The notes under the pieces were generated by a model, which did no database searches, had not been told where the DNA came from, and worked only from the letters and a program-made list of their open reading frames with translations. 64,000 nucleotides of DNA from a phage: assembly GCA_014437165.1 (NCBI GenBank), contig GCA_014437165.1_4090.3; one strand, 5' to 3'. The position numbers and the translations under genes are program-made. How positions within the stretch are numbered: position 1 is the first letter of the stretch; every line of letters starts with the position of its first letter. This document shows, piece after piece, positions 9,113 through 19,541 of the stretch.

Positions 9113-9850
9113 TTATACTGAATTGTTAGGATAATATCTCCCATTTCCCCATATTATTCGCACAGCACCACCACCAGCAGCCGTATAAGAAGAATTATCC
9201 CATATACTACCACCACCACCATACATCTTACCAGCACCACCACTACCAGCACCACCATTATATGAACCACCGTAGCTACCACCAATACCATTAGCACCTT
9301 GAACAATGATACCAGTACCACCACCCGTACCAATGAACGAGGTATTATAGAATGTACCACCGCCCCCGCCGCCGCCAGCACCATTTTCACCAGTGATTGC
9401 ATCTCCGTTACCACCTTTACCTGTGTAGCCACCAGCACCACCACCAATGACTGCACCACCACTTACACCAGTATTGCCACCATTACCACCACCATCATTA
9501 ATAGCGTTAGCAGCTTTTCCACCTAGTCCACCAACCGTATATGCACCAGTGAAGCTAACACATAGTTTTTCAGTTCCACGATATAAACCGTTTTCAACTG
9601 GTGTAGTAGTGTTGGTATGCGTAAGAGAAACACTTAAGTACTCACCACTAGTAACCGGAATATTATTACGCCACGATAAGCCGCCGCCAGCACCACGTTG
9701 ACCACCCGGCGAAATAACACATACTGATATTTCGGTAACGCCAGCAGGAACTGTAAATTGTGTTGTTCCTATTGTCGTGATTAATTGTTCACCATGTGGC
9801 TTATATTCAATTTCATTCCCGTACTTAATCATTCTTCCAAAAGGTAACAT
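9113..9850 (-). CDS. glycine-rich (GGxGG / GxGGxG repeat) protein carrying the same N-terminal MLPFGRMIKYGN tag
   Basis: 245-aa ORF; N-terminal ~60 aa non-repetitive, rest Gly/Ser/Thr/Asn-rich; same SD/terminator module as RCC1 paralogs. Confidence 0.75.
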   Translation of the reverse strand: MLPFGRMIKYGNEIEYKPHGEQLITTIGTTQFTVPAGVTEISVCVISPGGQRGAGGGLSWRNNIPVTSGEYLSVSLTHTNTTTPVENGLYRGTEKLCVSFTGAYTVGGLGGKAANAINDGGGNGGNTGVSGGAVIGGGAGGYTGKGGNGDAITGENGAGGGGGGGTFYNTSFIGTGGGTGIIVQGANGIGGSYGGSYNGGAGSGGAGKMYGGGGSIWDNSSYTAAGGGAVRIIWGNGRYYPNNSV

Positions 9851-9897
9851 AATTCCCTCCTTTATTCATTATAATATATTTAATACAAAAAGAAAAG

Positions 9898-9916
9898 CCA
9901 GTACTGAGTACTGGCT
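9898..9916 (-). terminator. intrinsic terminator GCCAGTACTCAGTACTGGC + T-run
   Basis: hairpin + TTTTCTTTTTG on minus strand. Confidence 0.7.
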
Positions 9917-9922
9917 ATTATA

Positions 9923-11110
9923 TTATAATTGTCGGGGTGTATCTAGTACATATCTAGTTGTACTAGGACCACCATCATCATAAGTTCCGGTTGAATATAT
10001 ATTTTTCATATCAGTTAGAAATGTACGATATGAACCTCTATATATTTTTATTTTATCATACATAGAATATGTTATTTGTGTAGGCATTGGACATGCAGTA
10101 AACTTACCAACAGTTGCACTAGTACCAATACCCAATGAACCAGCATAACTACTGGCATTTAAACCAGTTGCATATACACCAGTACTCGTAATTAGTATAC
10201 TAGATTGTGGTGGGTATCCAGTATGAATTGAATACAAAGTACCGGGTGGTAACGTCGTACTGTTATTTCCTAAAACTCCATTAACAGAGCTAGATGTAGT
10301 GTTATTTCCCCATGCCCCATTATTAGCTAACCCACCGACAAGGAACTGACGTGCTCCTGTATTTGGATTTTCAACTAAAGCACTTACTGCACCAGTTGAG
10401 CATCCTGTGTATTGTAACGTTTTTGTGTATGTTGTATTTGGTTGATATAAAGTATATTGATTATATGAAGTCCATGTAGTCGCGGAACTTATACCGGATG
10501 TAACACCACCAATATATAAATTATTTTGTTTATCAAACAACAATACACAGTTATTTGTTGACTGTATTTGTGCAATATCAACATTAGGTGTGACCGCTTT
10601 TACAAATGAACCATCGGTTATTTCATAAGTAGTTCCCGTTCCATCGGCGAATTGTCTAGCACTGTTCCACCCTGTACTCCATATTGTATTATTGTCCATT
10701 AAGAAAGTAAACCACGTAGTACCTCCATACATCTGTTTAATTGAAGTACTTGAACTTTGTGTGTACAAATTTTGAATATATTGGTTATAACTTAAAAACG
10801 TAGTAGTACTAGTTGATAAACCAATATGACTACCATATCCACAGTAATAATAATTTGAGTCATTGTCTTTTACTAATAAAGTTCCTTGTGTAAGCCAGCA
10901 ATCGTTAACGTTTTCTCTAATTAATGTCCATGATTTTAATGCAGTGTTGTTTCCTCTACCGAATTTCCCAAAACTATTATTCCCACGTGCATATAGTTGA
11001 CCATCCGTATACAGAACCACAACATCTAAATCAGTTGGGATTATTTTCTTAATTTGAAGTGGTACTGGGGCAATATTCCCATAATTCATCATTCTTGCAA
11101 AAGGTAACAT
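9923..11110 (-). CDS. RCC1-like beta-propeller paralog with N-terminal MLPFARMMNYGNI tag
   Basis: 395-aa ORF; blades such as LYARGNNSFGKFGRGNN. Confidence 0.8.
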   Translation of the reverse strand: MLPFARMMNYGNIAPVPLQIKKIIPTDLDVVVLYTDGQLYARGNNSFGKFGRGNNTALKSWTLIRENVNDCWLTQGTLLVKDNDSNYYYCGYGSHIGLSTSTTTFLSYNQYIQNLYTQSSSTSIKQMYGGTTWFTFLMDNNTIWSTGWNSARQFADGTGTTYEITDGSFVKAVTPNVDIAQIQSTNNCVLLFDKQNNLYIGGVTSGISSATTWTSYNQYTLYQPNTTYTKTLQYTGCSTGAVSALVENPNTGARQFLVGGLANNGAWGNNTTSSSVNGVLGNNSTTLPPGTLYSIHTGYPPQSSILITSTGVYATGLNASSYAGSLGIGTSATVGKFTACPMPTQITYSMYDKIKIYRGSYRTFLTDMKNIYSTGTYDDGGPSTTRYVLDTPRQL

Positions 11111-11157
11111 AAATTCCTCCTTTATTCATTATACTATATTTAATACAAATAAGAAAG

Positions 11158-11176
11158 CCAGTACAGAGTACTGGCA
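11158..11176 (-). terminator. intrinsic terminator GCCAGTACTCTGTACTGGC + T-run
   Basis: hairpin + T-run on minus strand. Confidence 0.7.
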
Positions 11177-11181
11177 TTAAA

Positions 11182-12330
11182 TCATTGTATAAATGACATA
11201 TCAACTTCTGTATAACTAAGAATGTTTTGTCCAGCAATTCCCCCCATTACTACCATAGCATACCCACAATAATATAATTGCTCAGTGTCCGTAAGTATAA
11301 GTGAACCAGATGGAGTGCGTACCAAATTACACGAACTATTAAACGAAGTATACGAAGGAGTATATGAGTACTGATTAATATTATTACCAACACCTAATTG
11401 ACCAAATCCATTCGACCCAGATGCGTATAGAACTTCATCACCTTTAGCTATATGTGATGCCATGTTACTAACACAAGTATATAGAGTATAAACTCCTGAA
11501 CTCAATAATGTCGGAGTTTTGTATTGTATATCGGTAGATGAAGAAGTACCACCTGTGCCAAATTCGTTCCCGTATTGTGCACCGAACTGTTTACCACAAG
11601 CGTACAAATTATTATCCGATTTAATAAAAAATGTACTTTGATAACTTACATCAAAATCTATAACATCCGAAGCAATCATCGTCACCCCAGTAATAGAAGT
11701 TTGATTACCTGTACCTAACTGATAGTAATAGTTAAAACCACAACCCCATAAAGTATTATCTTCTTTTAGGTATATGTTACCAACTGCCTTTTTAACCGAA
11801 GTTATAGTATCTACCCTTTTGAATGTGTTAAAAGAATTAATGTTTGTACCATCACCAAATGATGATAGGTTCGAGTTATTGTTAACTCCACAACAATACA
11901 ACGTACCATCGTTTGTTATCAAATTCACCTTCATATCATTAAAACTACTCATGTATTTTATATCAGAAACATTAATACCACCTGATGTTATCCACGTAGT
12001 ACAGTCCGTCCACAAAGTTTTTGTATCAGTTACACCAGTGAATGCCTTCGTGTTACCAGTGATAAAAACTTTTCCAGTACCTTTCTCTTCATACAATTGA
12101 CAACTACTACTGTTATCTTCCAATAGAACTCGTTTAACATTCTCTGCACAAAGAATAAATTTACTCGATGCTACACCTGTACCAGTACCCCAATTCGTCG
12201 CAGAAGATGCATACAACTTATTAGTATAAGTATCATGAAGATACATAGAATCACTTGAATATATTTTAAAACGCCTATCCTTACCAGGGGCAATATTCCC
12301 ATAATTCATCATTCTTACAAAAGGTAACAT
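11182..12330 (-). CDS. RCC1-like beta-propeller paralog with N-terminal MLPFVRMMNYGNI tag
   Basis: 382-aa ORF; canonical blade YASGSNGFGQLGVGNN. Confidence 0.8.
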   Translation of the reverse strand: MLPFVRMMNYGNIAPGKDRRFKIYSSDSMYLHDTYTNKLYASSATNWGTGTGVASSKFILCAENVKRVLLEDNSSSCQLYEEKGTGKVFITGNTKAFTGVTDTKTLWTDCTTWITSGGINVSDIKYMSSFNDMKVNLITNDGTLYCCGVNNNSNLSSFGDGTNINSFNTFKRVDTITSVKKAVGNIYLKEDNTLWGCGFNYYYQLGTGNQTSITGVTMIASDVIDFDVSYQSTFFIKSDNNLYACGKQFGAQYGNEFGTGGTSSSTDIQYKTPTLLSSGVYTLYTCVSNMASHIAKGDEVLYASGSNGFGQLGVGNNINQYSYTPSYTSFNSSCNLVRTPSGSLILTDTEQLYYCGYAMVVMGGIAGQNILSYTEVDMSFIQ

Positions 12331-12375
12331 ATTTCCCTCCTTTATTCATTATACTATATTTAATACAAAAAAGAA

Positions 12376-12398
12376 TGCCAGTATCAAGTACTGGCATA
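12376..12398 (-). terminator. intrinsic terminator ATGCCAGTACTTGATACTGGCAT + T-run
   Basis: hairpin + TTCTTTTTTG on minus strand. Confidence 0.7.
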
Positions 12399-12401
12399 TA
12401 T

Positions 12402-13571
12402 TTAAACTGGTGAATCTAATACAAATTCTAAGCTACTAACGCCACCATATGTGACATTTGTCCCCGTGCTATATACAAAATTACCATCAGTTATATAAGT
12501 TCGGTTATACCCACCTGCCATCTGCGACTTACTATAATCAAACCCATCAGGCACGATTGCTTTGGTATATACCAATGCATTGGTAGATGTACCAATACCT
12601 AACATACCAGCTTCTGAAGATTGATTGTAGCCGCAACAATATATACCATCTGTTGTAGCAATAACTTGGTTATAATATGAAGTATTGTTAGCAATGCTTA
12701 CTACATCACCGGGTGGCATTAGTGAAGCAGTTTGAACCTCAAATGCTCTATAATCATTGAGAGAACCATTTGTCCCATCTGCTTGTGCACCAAATATTCT
12801 CGAACCGCCATTTGCGATGATGGTTTTTCCATTTGGATCAGTACCAATTGCCATTGCCATTGAAGTACCATTCTCCGTGTAGTACTTGATATTAATTGTA
12901 TTTCTTAAGCTGGTAGGAGCACCATAATATATAGTATATAACTTACTTCCTGAACTTGTAACTGCATTTACTCTTCCTGTATAAAATAGCCATCCTTGGT
13001 TTGTAACATAACCGTGCATTAAATTACTTGCAAACAATTTAACAGGTAATTGATTTGCTGCGGTCGGAACAGTACTTTTGACGAATTTACCAGCAATATT
13101 GTTAGTTGTTGTCCCATCACCCAACTGACCATCTGACCCCACTCCAGTACTCCATATTGTTTGGTCTGACAGTAACACACTTGTAGTCTGATAACTAACT
13201 GCTATATCTAATATTGGTAATGTTAATGTATCGAATGTTGGCATAGCAGAAGTCCATATTGATACTGCTGCCCCTTTCATACCAACAGTTGTTGAACTTC
13301 CACTGTACCATATTTCATCATTGCTTTTCTTAAGAACTATCGTCGTGGCTCCCATCCAAAAATCTTGAACACCAGAAGTACTATAAGTCCATGTAGTAAC
13401 AGTATTTTTGTGACCTAAACCCAAAAGACCATTTGCATTCTCACCACGCACATATAAATCACCACTGTTTGTTAAAACAGCAACATTATAGTTGTTAGCA
13501 AGTATTTTTTTAATATTTGGTTTAGCAGGGGCAATATTCCCATAATTCATCATTCTTCCAAAAGGTAACAT
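12402..13571 (-). CDS. RCC1-like beta-propeller paralog with N-terminal MLPFGRMMNYGNI tag
   Basis: start at 13571 (Met55 of track ORF) is the one preceded by GGAGG and giving the tag; upstream extension runs through the terminator. Confidence 0.8.
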   Translation of the reverse strand: MLPFGRMMNYGNIAPAKPNIKKILANNYNVAVLTNSGDLYVRGENANGLLGLGHKNTVTTWTYSTSGVQDFWMGATTIVLKKSNDEIWYSGSSTTVGMKGAAVSIWTSAMPTFDTLTLPILDIAVSYQTTSVLLSDQTIWSTGVGSDGQLGDGTTTNNIAGKFVKSTVPTAANQLPVKLFASNLMHGYVTNQGWLFYTGRVNAVTSSGSKLYTIYYGAPTSLRNTINIKYYTENGTSMAMAIGTDPNGKTIIANGGSRIFGAQADGTNGSLNDYRAFEVQTASLMPPGDVVSIANNTSYYNQVIATTDGIYCCGYNQSSEAGMLGIGTSTNALVYTKAIVPDGFDYSKSQMAGGYNRTYITDGNFVYSTGTNVTYGGVSSLEFVLDSPV

Positions 13572-13615
13572 ATTCCCTCCTTTATTTGTTATACTATATT
13601 TAATACAAAAAAGAA

Positions 13616-13638
13616 TGCCAGTATCAAGTACTGGCATT
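13616..13638 (-). terminator. intrinsic terminator, identical to 12376-12398
   Basis: identical hairpin + T-run. Confidence 0.7.
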
Positions 13639-13641
13639 ATG

Positions 13642-14751
13642 TTATTTTGGTAAATCAATTTTAGTAAAGACTGCAACATCCTCGATTGCACCTGGAATGG
13701 CGTAATACGATCCAGTACTATACACATCTCCATTTTTGGTTAATATCGATGTCAAACCATCACTAAAAAGAACATCCCTAATCTCACTAACTTCAACGGG
13801 TAATTGTAAATTGGTAGCACTATATATAGCACCAGTTTGAGAATTGTTTAATCCCAAACCACGGTTCGCCCCAACACCCTTCTGATATGTACTAGTAATT
13901 ACCATTTGTGTAGCAGTATTTAAGGCAGGTGAATTCGTCATAAACAACGGAGAACTATTAGGCAAAGTACTTAAAGGAACTGCACGGAATGTAGTCGTAC
14001 CTGAACTAAGAAAGTTTGGAGTTTGACCACATACGAAATATGATGTACCATTATAGTAATTTAATGCATTACCACCAATGGCTGCATCGATTACACCAGA
14101 ACTACGCAATCCCCAAGTGTTAATTTGTGTTTGGTTCCCCGTACCATGCTGCCCACTACTATTCCATCCAGAACTATATAGCTTATTATCTAATGTAAGA
14201 TACATACTATCATTCGCATTGGTCATTACTTTACGAACGTTCGTAGCACATTGAGTTAATGTGTAAATTGATGATGAACCAATACCCAAAGAACCACGAT
14301 ATCCATTATCTCCTGCACCATAGAGTACTGAATTAGTGCTAAGTACAAATATTAAACCATTTGTACATACAATATTAGCAATTTCACTTACTGGTATAGC
14401 ATTGGTAAACCAATTAGTTCTTTCAACTAATACAGTACTGTAAGAAGTAGTTGTAGAAGATGAGAACCAGTACGTTTGACCTGATGTCCATATCGTATTA
14501 TCATTTTTAATAATAACAAGTGTACGATCACCCACGAAAAAATTAGAAACATCTGCACTTACTAATATCCATGAAGATACCGTGTTGGTATTACCATTTC
14601 CAGATTCACCACCTTGATTTCTACCTATGTAATATAAATCATGTGAATCAGTCAATAAGAATTGGCCTTGGGTAGAAGCACCAACTTTAATTATTTTTTT
14701 AGGACCAGGGACAATATTTCCATACCTAATTATTCTTCCAAAAGGTAACAT
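13642..14751 (-). CDS. RCC1-like beta-propeller paralog with N-terminal MLPFGRIIRYGNI tag
   Basis: start at 14751 (Met8 of track ORF) with GGAGG SD; 8-nt gap to upstream gene (coupled). Confidence 0.8.
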   Translation of the reverse strand: MLPFGRIIRYGNIVPGPKKIIKVGASTQGQFLLTDSHDLYYIGRNQGGESGNGNTNTVSSWILVSADVSNFFVGDRTLVIIKNDNTIWTSGQTYWFSSSTTTSYSTVLVERTNWFTNAIPVSEIANIVCTNGLIFVLSTNSVLYGAGDNGYRGSLGIGSSSIYTLTQCATNVRKVMTNANDSMYLTLDNKLYSSGWNSSGQHGTGNQTQINTWGLRSSGVIDAAIGGNALNYYNGTSYFVCGQTPNFLSSGTTTFRAVPLSTLPNSSPLFMTNSPALNTATQMVITSTYQKGVGANRGLGLNNSQTGAIYSATNLQLPVEVSEIRDVLFSDGLTSILTKNGDVYSTGSYYAIPGAIEDVAVFTKIDLPK

Positions 14752-14759
14752 ATTCCCTC

Positions 14760-15962
14760 CTATTGTTGCCATAACTGCGTTGGCATTAATGTTAGTGTAG
14801 TAATACTATAAGTGCCATCTGGCAATCTACCACCATTTCCATTCCAGCCACCACATGCATATAATTTATAATCTTTAGTAATTATTATGGTTCTGCTCCA
14901 ATCTTTAGATGCCATAAGAACATTGTCATAACCACCACTTATTGCACTAAGATTAAAAATATTCCAAGTTCTAACTAATGTATTAGTTCCATTACCTTCT
15001 TGACCATATGAGTTAGCACCACTACTTCTAACATATGGTGCGTATTGTGCCATAGGTGCACCAATTGATGCATTTCCCATATTACTTGGACAAATAAAAG
15101 TACTGTACTTACTTACATCAACCGTGACCGATGTGTTCCTAATTGGTGTTAGCTGATTTACCGATGTAGTCGTACCATTACCAGCTTGTCCATTACTGTT
15201 AGCCCCGCTATAATATACAGACCCACCAGTAGTAAACCACCAAGTAACATCGTATGTAGTACTAATATGTTCGACATCACTCATCACATATTTGTTCAAA
15301 TATATCATAGAACTAGCACCACAACCACTTTCACCGAAGTTATCCTTACCACAAAACCATGCCTTTTTATTTGATTTAATATAGTGCGTTCCTTGTAATG
15401 AACATGCCATATGTGTAACTTCACCCATATTAGTCATAACTGTTAGTGTGGGTATGGAATTTTGATTACCAGACCCACATTCACCATTGGTATTTCTTCC
15501 ACACGCAATTACTCTACCATCGGTTAATAATATTCTAGTACTTTCACCTATATATACACTCTTGATCATATTAGCCATAACACCAATTTTATTAAATGCA
15601 ACAGTAACATCAGTCCATGTTGTCAAAAAACCATTAACAGGTGTTGCATCTCCATAATCAGAAAATGCACCAACCGATCCAGTGTAGTATATTTTATTAT
15701 CCAAATCAATCATCAATGAACCTTGAACACCAAGCCAAAAGGCTGCACAGTTCCTTGCAAGTACTGTAAATGACGAAACTGCTGCTGAATTCCCAAGACC
15801 AAATTGATAAAAGTTATTACTACCATAACCATATAAAGTATTAGTTGGGTTATGTAGATACATACAGTTTGTATAATGTTGTTGTAAAACATCTGAGAAC
15901 TCTACAGGTTCTGGACCTGGTGCAATATTTGCGTACTTAATCATTCTTCCAAAAGGTAACAT
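14760..15962 (-). CDS. RCC1-like beta-propeller paralog with N-terminal MLPFGRMIKYANI tag; first gene of the minus-strand array
   Basis: 400-aa ORF; SD GGAGGG upstream. Confidence 0.8.
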   Translation of the reverse strand: MLPFGRMIKYANIAPGPEPVEFSDVLQQHYTNCMYLHNPTNTLYGYGSNNFYQFGLGNSAAVSSFTVLARNCAAFWLGVQGSLMIDLDNKIYYTGSVGAFSDYGDATPVNGFLTTWTDVTVAFNKIGVMANMIKSVYIGESTRILLTDGRVIACGRNTNGECGSGNQNSIPTLTVMTNMGEVTHMACSLQGTHYIKSNKKAWFCGKDNFGESGCGASSMIYLNKYVMSDVEHISTTYDVTWWFTTGGSVYYSGANSNGQAGNGTTTSVNQLTPIRNTSVTVDVSKYSTFICPSNMGNASIGAPMAQYAPYVRSSGANSYGQEGNGTNTLVRTWNIFNLSAISGGYDNVLMASKDWSRTIIITKDYKLYACGGWNGNGGRLPDGTYSITTLTLMPTQLWQQ

Positions 15963-16063: not shown

Positions 16064-16309
16064 ATGAACAATGTAATAGATCACTACCAAGCACTTAGCC
16101 AAAGTACTAAGAACTATATGAGCTACATGAACGCAGAAGACTTCGCATTCTTCCTCTCAAAATTCTGTGCAATCAATACCCTCAAAAAAAGTACTACCCC
16201 AACAAGTGCACTTATGTTGAATTGCTTTATAGAGGACATCTTTGAGGGACTTCAAAACCCTGACGAAAGTAAACGATTCATTAACCTTTTAGTACTGGCA
16301 TCTATATGA
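16064..16309 (+). CDS. small protein, family A
   Basis: SD AAGGAGA; first of a tandem array of 60-80-aa paralogs. Confidence 0.55.
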   Translation: MNNVIDHYQALSQSTKNYMSYMNAEDFAFFLSKFCAINTLKKSTTPTSALMLNCFIEDIFEGLQNPDESKRFINLLVLASI

Positions 16310-16515
16310 CCCAAGAACAAATTATGCAGTACTACCTATGTGCTCTGTCAAAAGGTGAACAGAATAGCATAGAGCATCAACAAATTATACTTGCAAATGC
16401 AAAACGTTCGGCACTTCTGCTTAACTCAGTCAGAAATAACCTCATAAGGAATTTCCTTGAAGGTAACGAGTCTATGCAGTACTATTTCATCTTAACACTA
16501 TTAATCGAGTACTAA
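16306..16515 (+). CDS. small protein, family A
   Basis: ATGA overlap with previous gene. Confidence 0.55.
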   Translation: MTQEQIMQYYLCALSKGEQNSIEHQQIILANAKRSALLLNSVRNNLIRNFLEGNESMQYYFILTLLIEY

Positions 16516-16516
16516 T

Positions 16517-16726
16517 ATGAACACTGAACATAAAGAATTCTACACCAAATACCTTAGCAACGAAGAACAATTGTTTCTAAGGAGTGTATCACCTTTAAGT
16601 ATAGATACACCACACGCCAGAGATTGCTTTAATAATTGTATACGTAGTACTCTAGAAGCAATCGAATGCAATAACAAAAATATTATGTACTCAGGTTTAA
16701 TAGGACTAATCTACTTTTATGAATAA
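16517..16726 (+). CDS. small protein, family A (MNTEHKEFY...NNCI...)
   Basis: tandem, coupled. Confidence 0.55.
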   Translation: MNTEHKEFYTKYLSNEEQLFLRSVSPLSIDTPHARDCFNNCIRSTLEAIECNNKNIMYSGLIGLIYFYE

Positions 16727-16913
16727 TCATGAAGATTTCTATTGTAGTAAACTACACAAGCAAGAACAGCTATCATTCTCTTTAGCACGACCTATGAGAA
16801 AGAATAATCTGTATTATAATTACGATTTCAGGATAGAGACACGTAATGCAATAGAACATACGTTCCCTGCAACTAAGTACCGCTCTATCCTGAACCTCAT
16901 CTTTAAGTTCTAA
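16719..16913 (+). CDS. small protein, family A
   Basis: 8-nt overlap with previous. Confidence 0.5.
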   Translation: MNNHEDFYCSKLHKQEQLSFSLARPMRKNNLYYNYDFRIETRNAIEHTFPATKYRSILNLIFKF

Positions 16914-16965
16914 AAGGTGCAACAGGAACCGAGTACTTTAATATAGTAAGGATAATTGCATTACA

Positions 16966-17151
16966 ATGAATCATATAAGCTACTACTACCAACAACTATC
17001 CGACAGAGACAAGTACAGTCACAACTCCCATGTGTGGTACTACAAACGCGGCAGTATAAGAGACAAACAACATTACTTCTGTATTTCTATTAAAGAAGCA
17101 CTGACAACTAAGTACACGTACCGAGCAGTACTTAAACTAATCTCTATGTAA
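16966..17151 (+). CDS. small protein, family A (…KYTYRAVLKLISM)
   Basis: paralog of 17160-17342. Confidence 0.55.
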   Translation: MNHISYYYQQLSDRDKYSHNSHVWYYKRGSIRDKQHYFCISIKEALTTKYTYRAVLKLISM

Positions 17152-17159
17152 GGAAGAAA

Positions 17160-17342
17160 ATGAACATAGAATTCTATTTAACTAAACTACAACACGCCGA
17201 AAGATTCAACTTCAATAAGTTCAATATTTTCTACAATTGCGGGAACAAAAAAGATAAACACACCTTCCTATATGTCGTCACAAGAGATGCACAAAACGAA
17301 AAGTACACATACAGAGAAGTAATGAAACTAATCGCTATTTAA
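17160..17342 (+). CDS. small protein, family A (…KYTYREVMKLIAI)
   Basis: SD GGAAGAAA; paralog of previous. Confidence 0.55.
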   Translation: MNIEFYLTKLQHAERFNFNKFNIFYNCGNKKDKHTFLYVVTRDAQNEKYTYREVMKLIAI

Positions 17343-17350
17343 GGAATACT

Positions 17351-17530
17351 ATGCAACAATTCTATATAGAACGTATAACCATAAAAGACCGTTTCATGTA
17401 CGACACATTCGTTGATTACTACAACCTAGGAACAAAAAGTACTAAAAATATTAATCTCAATAGCTGCATTTATGCTGTACTAACACAAGATAATCCCTAC
17501 AGGGAAATCCTCGCCCTGGCATCTATATAA
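17351..17530 (+). CDS. small protein (59 aa), family A-like; below the ORF-track cutoff
   Basis: ATG 17351 after SD AAGGAA; ends ...ILALASI. Confidence 0.45.
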   Translation: MQQFYIERITIKDRFMYDTFVDYYNLGTKSTKNINLNSCIYAVLTQDNPYREILALASI

Positions 17531-17540
17531 AGGAAACCAA

Positions 17541-18212
17541 ATGAAACTTAATGCACACAGCAAACAATACCTTAAGCACTTTAAGTACCTCAATAGTATT
17601 CAGGCAGAATCAGTTACATCTGCATATACGTATCACCCGAATGTACTAAAGAAACGAAATAAAAAGGAAAAATCCAGTACAAATGGAGTTAACGTATCAA
17701 AGAACCTTGAATTGTACATGAAGAAAAATAATATAGCTGTTCATTATATGAATATCTATAATACTGATTTAAAAGTATTGAGTACTAATACGAGCACAAA
17801 GGTACTAAAGAACGCATCCTTCATCATCAATATGCAGTTGGATAATACCCCGTGCACTTTAATGCTATACTTCGGGAATACATACTTCTTCGGGAATTGT
17901 AACACCTCCCACGATGTCAATACAGCACAATTCCAAATGGGTGGCATATACTCTACTGATGCAGAAAAAGTACACGAGAATATGCACTTCTGGCAAGCAC
18001 AACGTACAGAAGAAACTGATACAGTACTACAATTCCTCAAAGAACTAGAACACAAAGAACTACAGGAAGAAGAACTATTCATGTACAGTACTGTAATCGA
18101 TAATCCAGTACTCTATAAAAACGCGTACAATCTGACAAAACATGTACAGGAACTTATCAGTACTAATAAGAAAATGCATCACCTCATTACGTATATTACA
18201 AACTATGTATAA
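17541..18212 (+). CDS. hypothetical protein (223 aa); contains EEELFMYSTVIDNP, a possible divergent family C core
   Basis: SD AAGGAAA; long ORF. Confidence 0.6.
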   Translation: MKLNAHSKQYLKHFKYLNSIQAESVTSAYTYHPNVLKKRNKKEKSSTNGVNVSKNLELYMKKNNIAVHYMNIYNTDLKVLSTNTSTKVLKNASFIINMQLDNTPCTLMLYFGNTYFFGNCNTSHDVNTAQFQMGGIYSTDAEKVHENMHFWQAQRTEETDTVLQFLKELEHKELQEEELFMYSTVIDNPVLYKNAYNLTKHVQELISTNKKMHHLITYITNYV

Positions 18213-18390
18213 AGAATACTACAGGGAACATCTCCCAATGTATCTCCAACACCTTGTACCAACAGAACCATTGGGTATAGAAAAAAACTACGAAAAAGAC
18301 TACTTCATTCAGTGCACTAAATCCTCGATATATATTGAAGACTATAATCGAGTACTGTATCACATCCTTTTACTAATATATAGGTACTAA
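18205..18390 (+). CDS. small protein, family A (MYKEYYREH…LLLIYRY)
   Basis: internal ATG 18205 overlapping previous stop preferred over track start 18142. Confidence 0.55.
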   Translation: MYKEYYREHLPMYLQHLVPTEPLGIEKNYEKDYFIQCTKSSIYIEDYNRVLYHILLLIYRY

Positions 18391-18391
18391 T

Positions 18392-18574
18392 ATGCACAAA
18401 GAATACTACACACAATTTCTCCCCAGCATTTTTGAACACTACGCCAGATACAAAGTCCCCCTGGATAACGATTTGGCAGTACTGGGATTCAATAACTGCA
18501 TAGAACGAAGTATAGAAAATAGTAGTAGTTATGACCAGCTATATAACACTATCCTACTTATATTCAGGTACTAA
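18392..18574 (+). CDS. small protein, family A (MHKEYYTQF…LLIFRY)
   Basis: TAATATG junction. Confidence 0.6.
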   Translation: MHKEYYTQFLPSIFEHYARYKVPLDNDLAVLGFNNCIERSIENSSSYDQLYNTILLIFRY

Positions 18575-18575
18575 C

Positions 18576-18764
18576 ATGCATAAAGAATACTACACAAAAT
18601 ATTTCCCAATGTACCTCAGAACTAATCTATTAGATAAACCTCGCGGTATCAATGCACAAAATGATAAAGTGTATTTTACTATGTGCACTAAAGCATGTAT
18701 ACTAGATTTTGACAGCTACCATCGAGTACTGTATCATACCCTGTACCTAGCTTTCGTATTCTAA
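18576..18764 (+). CDS. small protein, family A (MHKEYYTKY…)
   Basis: internal ATG 18576 (Met16 of track ORF) gives the conserved N-terminus. Confidence 0.55.
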   Translation: MHKEYYTKYFPMYLRTNLLDKPRGINAQNDKVYFTMCTKACILDFDSYHRVLYHTLYLAFVF

Positions 18765-18773
18765 GAGAACAAT

Positions 18774-18959
18774 ATGCATAAAGAATTCTACTTAAGCCAT
18801 CTGGATCTAAACTCCCAAATGCTTATACCACTAATCCCAATAGATATCAAGGATAAGAAAAATACCGAACAATTCATTTACCATACACAGTGTGCGATCA
18901 CCCCAAATTACATTCCATATGAATTGTACTACATTCTCGCCCTAATATATAGGTACTAA
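18774..18959 (+). CDS. small protein, family A
   Basis: MHKEFY N-terminus, LALIYRY C-terminus. Confidence 0.6.
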   Translation: MHKEFYLSHLDLNSQMLIPLIPIDIKDKKNTEQFIYHTQCAITPNYIPYELYYILALIYRY

Positions 18960-18960
18960 T

Positions 18961-19146
18961 ATGCATAGAGAATACTACACACAATTTGTTAAAGGGAACT
19001 ACAAACATGCCGTACCCAGAACCCCTTTAAATTCTCATGACCCAAGTACTATATTCTTGTTTAATGACGCAATACGTACAGTACTCAATACTAAAGATGA
19101 AGATGTGCAGTACGTATTCTTACTATTACTTATATACAGACACTAA
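18961..19146 (+). CDS. small protein, family A
   Basis: MHREYYTQF…LLLIYRH. Confidence 0.6.
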   Translation: MHREYYTQFVKGNYKHAVPRTPLNSHDPSTIFLFNDAIRTVLNTKDEDVQYVFLLLLIYRH

Positions 19147-19151
19147 CTAAT

Positions 19152-19334
19152 ATGAATAAAGAACATAAAGAATTCTATATAAGAAAACTAACATTCGTCC
19201 CCGTAAGAATATATAAAGAATGCGACCCAAGATTATACCTATGGCACTTCAATGAGTGCATAAAAGATTCTATATACCCTAAGAACTATAAAGAACAATT
19301 GTGCTCAGTACTAACACTAGTACTATCATATTAA
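19152..19334 (+). CDS. small protein, family A
   Basis: MNKEHKEFY…NECI…. Confidence 0.6.
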   Translation: MNKEHKEFYIRKLTFVPVRIYKECDPRLYLWHFNECIKDSIYPKNYKEQLCSVLTLVLSY

Positions 19335-19349
19335 TTAATAGAGAATACT

Positions 19350-19541
19350 ATGTATAAAAACTTCTATATAAGTAAACTAAAAGAAAATGAACAAGTATGG
19401 ATTAGATCTATAATTCCACTGGCATTTAATAGATATGCATTTAACAGATGTACCGAGATTGCTATAGACCCTTATAATATTAAAGAGAATGTACAGTATA
19501 ATCAGTACTACTATATCTTAATGCTTATATATAGGAAGTAA
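19350..19541 (+). CDS. small protein, family A
   Basis: MYKNFY…LMLIYRK. Confidence 0.6.
   Translation: MYKNFYISKLKENEQVWIRSIIPLAFNRYAFNRCTEIAIDPYNIKENVQYNQYYYILMLIYRK

What the first reader, a model, noticed from the sequence alone, without database searches (positions are those of the whole stretch)
9113..9850. Glycine-rich protein carries the same N-terminal tag as the propellers
The 245-aa product starts MLPFGRMIKYGN but then has no RCC1 blades; most of it is GGxGG / GxGGxGG repeat sequence. The tag is therefore a portable module attached to unrelated passenger domains, which supports a targeting or assembly function over simple paralogy.
Basis: seen in the sequence. Interest (0 to 1): 0.6.

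Follow-up and report, generated by a model that had tools for sequence, protein, structure and literature searches.

The report
Portable virion tag on fibre-head protein
A 12-residue N-terminal peptide (MLPFxR..xYGN) is shared by at least four unrelated protein folds in one clade of jumbo phages. Nearly all proteins that carry it are found in purified virions, so it is most likely a plug that loads interchangeable binding heads onto the particle.

Summary
Window 9113-9850 (-) encodes a 245-aa protein that starts MLPFGRMIKYGN, as do nine flanking RCC1-like genes, and it has no RCC1 blades.

The tag is portable:
- In Pectobacterium phage CBB, 11 genes at four separate loci carry it.
- Their passengers are Kelch propellers, ConA-like lectin domains, unknown folds and a Gly-rich orthologue (CBB_144).
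- Nine of the 11 were detected in virions by published mass spectrometry (P = 2e-8).
- Tagged RCC1 proteins are also in phAPEC6 and GAP32 virions.

The tag occurs only in 310-386 kb Rak2-like phages. It lies outside the predicted folds. In CBB the amino acids are kept through synonymous change.

Most likely it is a virion-incorporation or docking peptide for small binding heads. A T4-style capsid-targeting signal is the main rival. I found no prior description of the tag. I rate it a new variant of a known kind, interest 0.62.

The parts
4140..15962 (-). Array of tagged genes. It holds nine RCC1-like propeller genes, the Gly-rich gene, and one truncated remnant (4140-4340) with a decayed tag MLPFRRII. 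It is the only minus-strand block in a plus-strand neighbourhood.
   Evidence: The same array, with a different copy number, is in Sharanji, 121Q and phAPEC6.
9113..9850 (-). Gene for the 245-aa tagged Gly-rich protein (23.8 kDa, pI 7.7). The stop codon is 9113-9115.
   Evidence: It is 100% identical to Sharanji gp113 and to the G17 protein. There are 206 homologues at E<=1e-3. It matches phrog_4474 at E 4e-67.
9815..9850 (-). Codons 1-12: the tag MLPFGRMIKYGN.
   Evidence: pLDDT is below 50 for residues 1-6 and averages 51 for residues 1-10 in the model.
9539..9814 (-). Residues 13-104: a short linker and then a TNF-like beta-sandwich (strands 20-24, 28-33, 40-46, 58-65, 71-76, 86-91, 94-100).
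9155..9538 (-). Residues 105-232: the glycine-rich (42% Gly) lattice domain, with motifs GGLGG, GGGNGG, GGGAGG and GAGGGGGGG.
   Evidence: Invariant and near-invariant glycines across 73 homologues.
9855..9863 (-). Shine-Dalgarno AAAGGAGGG, 4 nt upstream of the ATG. It is part of the conserved cassette.
   Evidence: Read from the sequence.
9866..9895 (-). AT-rich promoter-like block (TATTAAATATATTATAATGAATAAAGG) shared with the genes that start at 9042, 11110, 12330, 13571 and 15962.
   Evidence: It is 83% identical to the cassettes of the genes at 11110 and 12330. Promoter function is not shown. CBB and GAP32 late genes carry an ATAAATA motif.
9896..9916 (-). Hairpin terminator AGCCAGTACTCAGTACTGGCT followed by a T-run. 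It ends the upstream RCC1 gene (9923-11110).
   Evidence: The region has 14 terminator-like sites against 4.6 +/- 2.1 expected. The same GCCAGTAC...GTACTGGC hairpin recurs at 4318-4340, 9085-9107, 11157-11175, 12375-12397 and 13614-13638.
9085..9107 (-). Hairpin terminator that ends the Gly-rich gene, which makes it a self-contained transcription unit.

Best explanation
The gene encodes a small virion protein made of two parts.

Residues ~20-245 form a receptor-binding-type head: a TNF-like sandwich plus a glycine-rich lattice. This is the fold at the tip of the Pam3 tail fibre and in the Bxb1 tail brush.

Residues 1-12 (MLPFxR-hydrophobic-hydrophobic-x-Y-G/A-N) are a flexible, portable virion-incorporation peptide specific to Rak2-like jumbo phages. 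The same peptide is fused to RCC1 propellers, Kelch propellers, ConA-like lectin domains and other folds.

Most likely the peptide docks into one common socket on the particle. I favour the exterior (fibre, whisker, or tail or capsid decoration) about 2:1 over the interior. The phage would then display a changeable set of monomeric ligand-binding heads.

The array evolves by duplication and cassette exchange. The conserved block terminator / promoter-like box / ribosome-binding site / tag serves as the homology.

Shown here:
- the tag's presence, sharp boundary, portability and clade restriction;
- selection at the peptide level in CBB.

From published work: virion association of tagged proteins.

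Predicted: the passenger fold, and that the tag lies outside the fold.

Inferred: the docking function, the external location, and the existence of a common socket.
For: Portability:
- The tag sits on RCC1 proteins, Kelch proteins (CBB_550/552/554 and a metagenomic 290-aa protein), Laminin_G_3 proteins (CBB_548/551/247 and others) and Gly-rich proteins (the window protein and CBB_144; hhalign 99.6%, E 1.6e-24).
- It also sits on families with no Pfam hit.
- CBB's 11 tagged genes lie at about 75, 174, 345 and 350-355 kb. A whole-genome pattern scan finds no others.

Virion association:
- CBB: 9 of 11 tagged proteins are among 55 MS-detected proteins out of 554 ORFs, hypergeometric P = 2.4e-8.
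- All six CBB-specific structural proteins are tagged.
- phAPEC6: 6 of 8 annotated tagged genes were detected, P = 4e-5.
- GAP32 gp1 is tagged and was detected by MS.

Peptide-level selection: CBB tags vary synonymously at L2, P3, F4, Y10 and N12 while the residues stay invariant.

Tag outside the fold:
- pLDDT is low for residues 1-10 in both the Gly-rich model (mean 51) and the RCC1 model (mean 49).
- RCC1 profile matches to solved structures begin at position 18 or later.

External location:
- In gp24 this head recognises the host, and an N-terminal helical domain docks it to the baseplate (PMC9608196). Here the tag occupies that position.
- Some Gly-rich homologues carry fibronectin type III domains.
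- The tagged proteins are near neutral (pI 5.3-9.2) and are not DNA-binding-like.

Clade restriction: all 60 listed tblastn hits are 310-386 kb jumbo phages. The genuine metagenomic tags are all in contigs of 33-38% GC.
Against: - No experiment addresses the tag itself.
- The MS data are at protein level only. They say neither whether the tag is retained nor where the proteins sit.
- No socket protein was identified.
- In this window the tag is confined to one array, and its codons are identical in all ten genes, including the non-preferred CCT and AAG. Local conservation here could therefore owe much to gene conversion.
- Peptide counts for the phAPEC6 RCC1 proteins are low (1-5).
- The phAPEC6 authors suggested an internal, DNA-organising role.
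- The RCC1 model rests on a 9-sequence alignment (pLDDT 71), so 'tag outside the fold' is weaker for that passenger.
- The Gly-rich orthologue itself has not been shown in an Asteriusvirus virion. It was mis-annotated in phAPEC6.
Confidence: 0.6

Rival explanations
1. The tag is a T4-style capsid targeting sequence. It binds the prohead scaffold or core so that diverse proteins are packed inside the head. They may be trimmed by the prohead protease and are then ejected with the DNA as effectors or DNA organisers.
For: - The formal likeness is strong. The tag is a roughly 10-aa N-terminal peptide shared by otherwise unrelated proteins that are encoded in a plastic gene cluster, as for T4 internal proteins (PMC3012670).
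- These phages have a T4-like head, with a prohead core scaffold/protease and a gp23-like capsid protein among the phAPEC6 virion proteins.
- 5 of 11 CBB tags read [L/I/M]-x-E at positions 7-9. By my own knowledge, this resembles the T4 gp21 site.
- phAPEC6 has an inner body of unknown composition, and its authors proposed the RCC1 proteins for it.
Against: - Position 9 is K, N or R in all ten window tags. Across 38 distinct tags it is K17, E10, Q5, N3 and others, so no conserved Glu cleavage site exists.
- The passengers are fibre-head, lectin and propeller folds typical of surface binding modules.
- The proteins are near neutral and poor in charged residues, unlike DNA-embedded internal proteins.
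- There is no sequence similarity to the T4 capsid targeting sequence (my own knowledge of that sequence).
Confidence: 0.2
2. The peptide has no function of its own. The conserved stretch is a nucleotide-level element that happens to extend 36 nt into each ORF. It could be a recombination or gene-conversion tract, or a translation-initiation region. The Gly-rich gene would then have picked it up when it was inserted into the array.
For: - In the window all ten tags use identical codons. These include CCT (31% of Pro codons in the gene bodies) and AAG (28% of Lys codons), and GGT is avoided although it is 64% of Gly codons.
- The tag is contiguous with a repeated terminator / promoter-like / ribosome-binding-site cassette.
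- In Sharanji all tagged genes are in the one array.
Against: - CBB tags differ at synonymous sites (Pro: CCA 6, CCT 2, CCG 2; Phe: TTT/TTC; Tyr: TAT/TAC). They sit behind unrelated upstream sequences at four loci. Even so, M1, L2, P3, F4, Y10 and N12 are invariant.
- The peptide is kept across genera on hosts from Escherichia to Serratia.
- A neutral hitch-hiker would not predict virion presence at P = 2e-8.
Confidence: 0.07
3. The tag acts before or apart from assembly. For example, it could be a recognition peptide for a phage chaperone or for a modifying or processing enzyme needed by these beta-rich proteins. Alternatively it could be a structural strand of each fold. Virion presence would then be due to the passengers.
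For: - Fibre-head proteins of this fold need a dedicated chaperone in Pam3 (gp25).
- A Clp protease subunit is among the CBB virion proteins.
- AlphaFold gives weak local structure in the tag: strand 7-9 in the Gly-rich model and helix 5-8 in the RCC1 model.
Against: - Four unrelated folds are unlikely to share one structural strand or one folding need.
- The tag has the lowest confidence in both models.
- Most of the 120 listed Gly-rich homologues fold (by prediction) without this tag and have other N-termini.
- No chaperone-like gene accompanies the tagged genes in the array.
Confidence: 0.08

Closest known systems
Capsid targeting sequence (CTS) of bacteriophage T4 internal proteins
   Same: It is a short N-terminal peptide, the only thing shared by a diverse, fast-evolving set of virion proteins. 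It is sufficient to load foreign proteins into the particle (PMC3012670). The genes sit in a plastic cluster in a T4-related head-assembly background.
   Different: There is no sequence likeness and no conserved Glu protease site. The passengers here are binding-head folds rather than small charged anti-restriction proteins. The location in the virion is unknown.
N-terminal 'conserved peptide' of secondary receptor-binding proteins (KP32 gp38 type), which docks on the branching domain of RBP1
   Same: It is a short N-terminal peptide that acts as a modular docking element. It is exchangeable between unrelated receptor-binding bodies, and deleting it prevents virion incorporation without affecting folding (PMC13352976).
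   Different: That peptide is about 29 aa long. It occurs on one trimeric beta-helix depolymerase per phage and docks to a T4 gp10-like domain of a podovirus fibre. Here the tag is 12 aa long, sits on up to about 15 small and probably monomeric proteins per genome, and has no known partner.
Pam3 tail fibre gp24 (PDB 7YPX), Bxb1 tail wing brush gp33 (9D93) and the ALK/LTK glycine-rich domain
   Different: gp24 has an N-terminal alpha-helical trimerisation and baseplate-docking domain and a dedicated chaperone, gp25. The window protein has only the 12-aa tag and no adjacent chaperone-like gene. Sequence identity is 17-26%.
Pectobacterium phage CBB protein CBB_144 ('structural protein')
   Same: It has the same architecture: tag MLPFSPLIVYGN followed by the Gly-rich head, 254 aa, with full-length profile homology. 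It was detected in virions with 5 peptides and 34% coverage.
   Different: It stands alone between nrdD and nrdG, not in an RCC1 array. Identity to the window protein is about 35% over the first 103 residues. Position 6 is Pro instead of Arg.

Membership tests
Glycine-rich-domain proteins (Pfam PF21722; Pam3 gp24-type fibre head) | Sequence membership in the family | tested here: inconclusive
   A direct hmmscan against Pfam gives no hit even at E<=10. However, phmmer finds 206 homologues, and many of the more distant ones carry a precomputed PF21722 hit (for example P0037, E 3.8e-16). BFVD matches are named 'Glycine-rich domain-containing protein'.
Glycine-rich-domain proteins (Pfam PF21722; Pam3 gp24-type fibre head) | TNF-like beta-sandwich followed by a lattice of extended glycine-rich segments | tested here: met
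Glycine-rich-domain proteins (Pfam PF21722; Pam3 gp24-type fibre head) | N-terminal alpha-helical domain that trimerises the fibre and docks it to the baseplate, plus a cognate chaperone gene | tested here: not met
   The model has no helix of more than 4 residues apart from 111-114. The head starts at about residue 20, directly after the tag. The neighbouring genes are RCC1 paralogues. The protein therefore shares the head, not the fibre architecture.
RCC1-like propeller paralogues of the array | RCC1 repeats / seven-bladed propeller | tested here: not met
   There is no RCC1, RCC1_2 or WD40_RLD hit for the 245-aa protein, while all neighbours hit them. The fold is different.
Collagen-like / G-X-Y fibre proteins | Uninterrupted G-X-Y triplet runs, rich in proline | tested here: not met
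   There is no (G-nonG-nonG) run of 4 or more, and only 7 prolines. There is no tandem DNA repeat beyond short ACC runs.
T4-type capsid targeting sequence | Short N-terminal peptide shared by otherwise unrelated virion proteins | tested here: met
T4-type capsid targeting sequence | Ends in a prohead-protease site ([L/I]-x-E) and is removed on maturation | tested here: not met
   Position 9 is K, N or R in all ten window tags, and E in only 10 of 38 distinct tags. Actual processing is not testable with these tools.
T4-type capsid targeting sequence | Cargo lies inside the head and is ejected with the DNA | not testable with these tools
   The MS data show presence in virions but not location.
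Receptor-binding-protein docking peptide (KP32 RBP2 type) | N-terminal peptide necessary and sufficient for incorporation of the protein into the virion | not testable with these tools
   The only support is correlation: 9 of 11 tagged CBB proteins and 6 of 8 tagged phAPEC6 proteins are in virions.
Receptor-binding-protein docking peptide (KP32 RBP2 type) | Identified partner domain (T4 gp10-like branching domain) on a primary fibre | not tested
   No partner was sought.

The most novel reading that the evidence does not exclude
The MLPF peptide is a universal plug for a single socket on the exterior of Rak2-like jumbo phages, possibly the unexplained 'hairy' whiskers of CBB and phAPEC6 or their anchoring rings. 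The RCC1, Kelch, ConA-like and Gly-rich arrays would then be a combinatorial library of monomeric adhesin heads, swapped by cassette recombination. That would be a host-range or environment-binding system built differently from trimeric fibre branching. It would also give a 12-aa display tag for engineering jumbo phages.
Probability: 0.35. Interest if true: 0.78.

Novelty: new variant of a known kind. Interest (0 to 1): 0.62.

Why it matters
Arrays of 'regulator of chromosome condensation' genes are a long-noted oddity of 121Q-, PBECO4- and phAPEC6-like jumbo phages. They are still annotated as DNA-condensation proteins.

The shared tag suggests these proteins, together with Kelch, lectin-like and fibre-head proteins, form one functional class defined by how they join the virion. 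That reading argues against a chromosome-condensation role.

It also picks out candidates for the unexplained whiskers of CBB, because every CBB-specific structural protein carries the tag.

The question becomes directly testable with tag deletion, tag-reporter fusions, peptide-level MS, or an AlphaFold-Multimer screen for the socket. If the tag proves sufficient, it is a very short display handle for loading foreign domains onto jumbo phage particles.

Tried and rejected
- A collagen-like or tandem-repeat reading was rejected.
- The idea that the tag is the closing 'velcro' strand of the propeller was rejected. The tag has low confidence in the models and lies outside all RCC1 profile matches, and it occurs on non-propeller folds.
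- A T4 protease site at the end of the tag is not conserved.
- Literature searches found no description of the tag. I searched for 'MLPF', for jumbo phage + conserved N-terminal + RCC1, and for Asteriusvirus, and read the Sharanji, fEgEco12, RaK2 and RaK2-adsorption papers.
- The CBB supplements hold no peptide-level MS data, so tag retention could not be checked. No phAPEC6 supplement is held.
- The PDB holds no phage homologue of the RCC1 paralogues.
- Many single hits of the DNA pattern in metagenomes are chance. They are internal to long ORFs, in contigs of 43-69% GC, and lack a ribosome-binding site. They were discarded. L011, L016 and L013 in IMG/VR were discarded likewise.
- No sigma-70 promoter enrichment was seen in the array: 58 sites against 62.7 expected.
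- The invariance of M1, L2, P3, F4, Y10 and N12 in the pooled tag table is partly circular, because the search pattern required them. The unbiased checks are the window scan and the MxPF-only scan of CBB.

Full report
WHAT THE WINDOW IS. Megablast of 8000-12000 matches Escherichia phages vB_EcoM_G17 and Sharanji at 99.3% and 121Q at 89%. All are about 350-kb jumbo myoviruses of the genus Asteriusvirus, the 'Rak2-like' group. In Sharanji the finding is gp113, annotated 'hypothetical protein', inside a run of minus-strand genes gp106-gp118. Only one of those is annotated as an RCC1-repeat protein.

THE OBSERVATION. It is correct.
- ORF 9113..9850 (-) is 245 aa and starts MLPFGRMIKYGN.
- A six-frame scan finds MLPFxR[MI]xxY[GA]N at the start of ten adjacent minus-strand genes (4346-15962) and nowhere else in the 64 kb.
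- A 66-aa ORF at 4140-4340 holds a decayed copy (MLPFRRII...).
- The nine neighbours hit RCC1 models. The 245-aa protein hits no Pfam family, even at E<=10.
- The nine propellers are only 18-30% identical to each other, yet 8 of the 13 invariant alignment columns are in residues 1-13.
- At DNA level the 36-nt tag averages 88% identity over all ten genes. The next 90 nt average 36%.

Two details need correcting. Only residues 105-232 are glycine-rich (42% Gly; 29% overall). The sequence is also neither a tandem repeat nor collagen-like.

ANATOMY OF THE UNIT.
- The Gly-rich gene is a self-contained cassette. In order it has a hairpin terminator of the upstream gene (9896-9916), an AT-rich box containing TATAAT, AAAGGAGGG, the ATG, the 12 tag codons, the passenger, and its own hairpin terminator (9085-9107).
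- The same GCCAGTAC..GTACTGGC hairpin and box precede five other genes of the array. The region has 14 terminator-like sites against 4.6 +/- 2.1 expected.
- The cassette upstream of the Gly-rich gene is 83% identical to those of the genes starting at 11110 and 12330.
- The array is the only minus-strand block in a plus-strand neighbourhood.

THE PASSENGER.
- The protein belongs to phrog_4474 (E 4e-67, unknown function).
- It has 206 homologues at E<=1e-3. Most are 230-300 aa, and many of the distant ones carry Pfam PF21722, 'glycine-rich domain'.
- An AlphaFold model built on a 73-sequence alignment is confident (pLDDT 93.0, pTM 0.90).
[quoted passage not shown] The relation of the Bxb1 and Pam3 domains to the S16 gp38 adhesin is noted in PMC13243192.
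- The window protein has the head but not the helical docking domain. The 12-residue tag stands in its place.

THE TAG ELSEWHERE.
- tblastn of the Gly-rich protein found a 254-aa protein in Pectobacterium phage CBB (genus Mimasvirus). This is CBB_144, which starts MLPFSPLIVYGN and sits alone between nrdD and nrdG. It is a full-length homologue (hhalign 99.6%, E 1.6e-24).
- Scanning CBB for MxPF found the tag on CBB_536, 537 and 548-554. A pattern scan of IMG/VR added CBB_247. A looser whole-collection scan found no further CBB copies, so CBB has 11 tagged genes at four loci.
- By my own Pfam scans, CBB_548 and 551 are Laminin_G_3 / ConA-like above the gathering score. CBB_550, 552 and 554 are Kelch propellers. 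CBB_247 is weakly Laminin_G_3. CBB_536, 537, 549 and 553 have no hit.
- GAP32 gp1 (RCC1-like) and gp2 carry the tag. So do genes of Serratia phage BF, Yersinia phage fHe-Yen9-04 and several uncultured 355-371 kb contigs.
- A metagenome scan gave 38 matches with the full tag residue pattern. With few exceptions they are at ORF starts, behind a ribosome-binding site, in contigs of 33-38% GC. The chance hits are internal to long ORFs of higher GC. Passengers again include Kelch, Laminin_G_3, RCC1 and novel families.
- tblastn of a 23-aa tag against 50,697 phage records hit 61 records. All 60 listed are 310-386 kb jumbo phages of Escherichia, Salmonella, Erwinia, Yersinia, Cronobacter, Pectobacterium, Serratia, Klebsiella (fENko-Kae01) and Xanthomonas, with up to 15 places per genome. 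RaK2 and K64-1 are not among them.
- In Sharanji all 12 places lie in the one array.

VIRION EVIDENCE (published, not mine).
- CBB virion ESI-MS/MS detected 55 proteins out of 554 ORFs. They include CBB_144, 247, 536, 537, 548, 549, 551, 552 and 553 (PMC5259590). That is 9 of the 11 tagged proteins, hypergeometric P = 2.4e-8.
- The paper lists six MS-detected structural proteins that are absent from GAP32 (144, 247, 536, 537, 551, 552). All six carry the tag. The authors reasoned that such CBB-specific proteins are where the components of the tail 'whiskers' should be sought.
- phAPEC6 virion MS detected gp003, 005, 006, 007, 009 and 010, plus gp549 and gp551 (PMC7247149). The first six coincide with tagged ORFs. 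That is 6 of 8 annotated tagged genes, P = 4e-5.
- The Gly-rich gene itself could not have been found there, assuming the MS database was built from the annotated proteins. The record annotates a wrong-frame 100-aa ORF (gp004, 7716-8018) inside the true ORF 7325-8056.
- GAP32 gp1 was an MS-identified structural protein.

IS THE PEPTIDE ITSELF SELECTED? In the window the ten tags use identical codons. These include the non-preferred CCT (31% of Pro codons in the gene bodies) and AAG (28%), and they never use GGT (64% of Gly codons). That points to gene conversion or a nucleotide-level constraint within the array. In CBB the same residues are encoded by CCA/CCT/CCG, TTT/TTC, TTA/CTT, TAT/TAC and AAT/AAC. 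The upstream sequences there are unrelated, yet M1, L2, P3, F4, Y10 and N12 never change. That is selection on the peptide. Both processes therefore operate. Positions 5 and 9 are free, and positions 7-8 are hydrophobic. Part of that pooled table is ascertained by the search pattern.

IS THE TAG PART OF THE FOLDS? In the Gly-rich model residues 1-6 have pLDDT below 50 and residues 1-10 average 51. In a model of the neighbouring propeller (shallow alignment, pLDDT 71) residues 1-10 average 49, and the first blade strand starts at residue 20. Matches of the RCC1 profile to solved RCC1 domains never start before profile position 18. The tag is best read as a flexible extension.

MECHANISM. The best-supported reading is a portable virion-incorporation peptide (confidence about 0.6). 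I favour display on the outside about 2:1 over packaging inside, for three reasons. The one passenger with close structural relatives is a fibre or brush head. The others are lectin and propeller folds. All are near-neutral proteins with few charged residues, which does not fit the 'DNA condensation' annotation.

The main rival is a T4-like capsid targeting sequence, to which the system is formally very similar (PMC3012670). Against it, the tag has no conserved Glu cleavage site. A purely nucleotide-level explanation is contradicted by the CBB codon data and by the MS enrichment. A folding or chaperone role is unlikely for four unrelated folds.

The array presumably grows and shuffles through the repeated cassette-plus-tag homology. 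Copy number differs between strains: 10 in the window, 12 in Sharanji and 11 in 121Q.

COMPARISON AND NOVELTY. Two known systems work like this:
- the T4 capsid targeting sequence;
- the N-terminal 'conserved peptide' that docks secondary receptor-binding proteins of KP32-like phages onto RBP1. It is necessary for incorporation and transferable to a foreign enzyme (PMC13352976).

The present tag differs from both in four ways:
- its sequence and its length (12 aa);
- its number of clients per genome (up to about 15);
- the kind of client (small, probably monomeric binding domains);
- its unknown partner.

I found no mention of it in the papers on CBB, phAPEC6, RaK2, Sharanji or fEgEco12, or in full-text searches. 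The library searched is limited to open-access text. I therefore rate it a new variant of a known kind.

LIMITS.
- Location in the virion, retention of the tag and the binding partner are all unknown.
- The folds are predictions.
- The MS evidence is from relatives (92-95% identical for the Asteriusvirus proteins, about 35% for CBB_144), not from this exact phage.
- The Gly-rich protein itself has been seen in virions only in CBB.

Noticed in passing
L004 (phAPEC6 MK817115) 7325-8056, 2434 and 6063: The deposited phAPEC6 annotation calls a wrong-frame 100-aa ORF (gp004, 7716-8018) inside the real tagged Gly-rich gene. It also leaves two tagged RCC1 ORFs unannotated. The published virion proteome could therefore not have detected them.
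   Followed up: partly
window 4140-4340 (-): A 66-aa ORF contains a decayed tag (MLPFRRIITSS) plus one RCC1 blade. It is a truncated remnant at the end of the array. The same remnant is in Sharanji (gp118) and phAPEC6 (14262).
   Followed up: partly
L006 8134-10744; P0005-P0105; L003 7998 (PVP-SE1 gp19): 30 of 120 more distant Gly-rich homologues begin M-[LI]-E-[LM]-[LM] instead. In one 150-kb phage contig three adjacent genes start this way. One of them is a 221-aa protein that is not Gly-rich and has no Pfam hit. This may be a second, analogous N-terminal tag in other myovirus lineages.
   Followed up: partly
L044 (metagenome contig OEQX01000370.1): An array of nine RCC1-like genes uses the variant tag MLPFVR[ML]FDYGN on seven of them. 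The variable tag positions are therefore homogenised within a genome and differ between genomes. This could be gene conversion or co-evolution with a partner.
   Followed up: no
L005 / L023 (phage CBB: CBB_144, 247, 536, 537, 551, 552): All six mass-spectrometry-detected structural proteins that CBB has and GAP32 lacks carry the tag. The CBB authors reasoned that the components of the unexplained tail whiskers should lie among such CBB-specific proteins.
   Followed up: partly
window 9154-9701, both strands: Three long alternative-frame ORFs (102, 75 and 84 aa) overlap the Gly-rich gene. They are by-products of its GGN-rich codons and are the likely cause of the mis-annotation in phAPEC6.
   Followed up: yes
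window 404-3184 (+) and 16064-19541 (+): There are two runs of small tandem paralogues on the plus strand. The first is eight hydrophobic 104-141 aa proteins. The second is more than a dozen 60-80 aa proteins, many ending ...LIYRY or LIFRY. Function is unknown.
   Followed up: no
window 4318-4340, 9085-9107, 9896-9916, 11157-11175, 12375-12397, 13614-13638: One hairpin, GCCAGTAC-(3-5 nt)-GTACTGGC followed by a T-run, is reused as the terminator after six genes of the array. Most copies also read as a terminator on the opposite strand.
   Followed up: partly
window 11110-12330 versus L001 12182-13324 (Sharanji gp111): G17 and Sharanji carry one more RCC1 gene than the window at this point. The 4-kb query spans 5.6 kb in them. 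The array copy number is therefore polymorphic among near-identical phages.
   Followed up: partly
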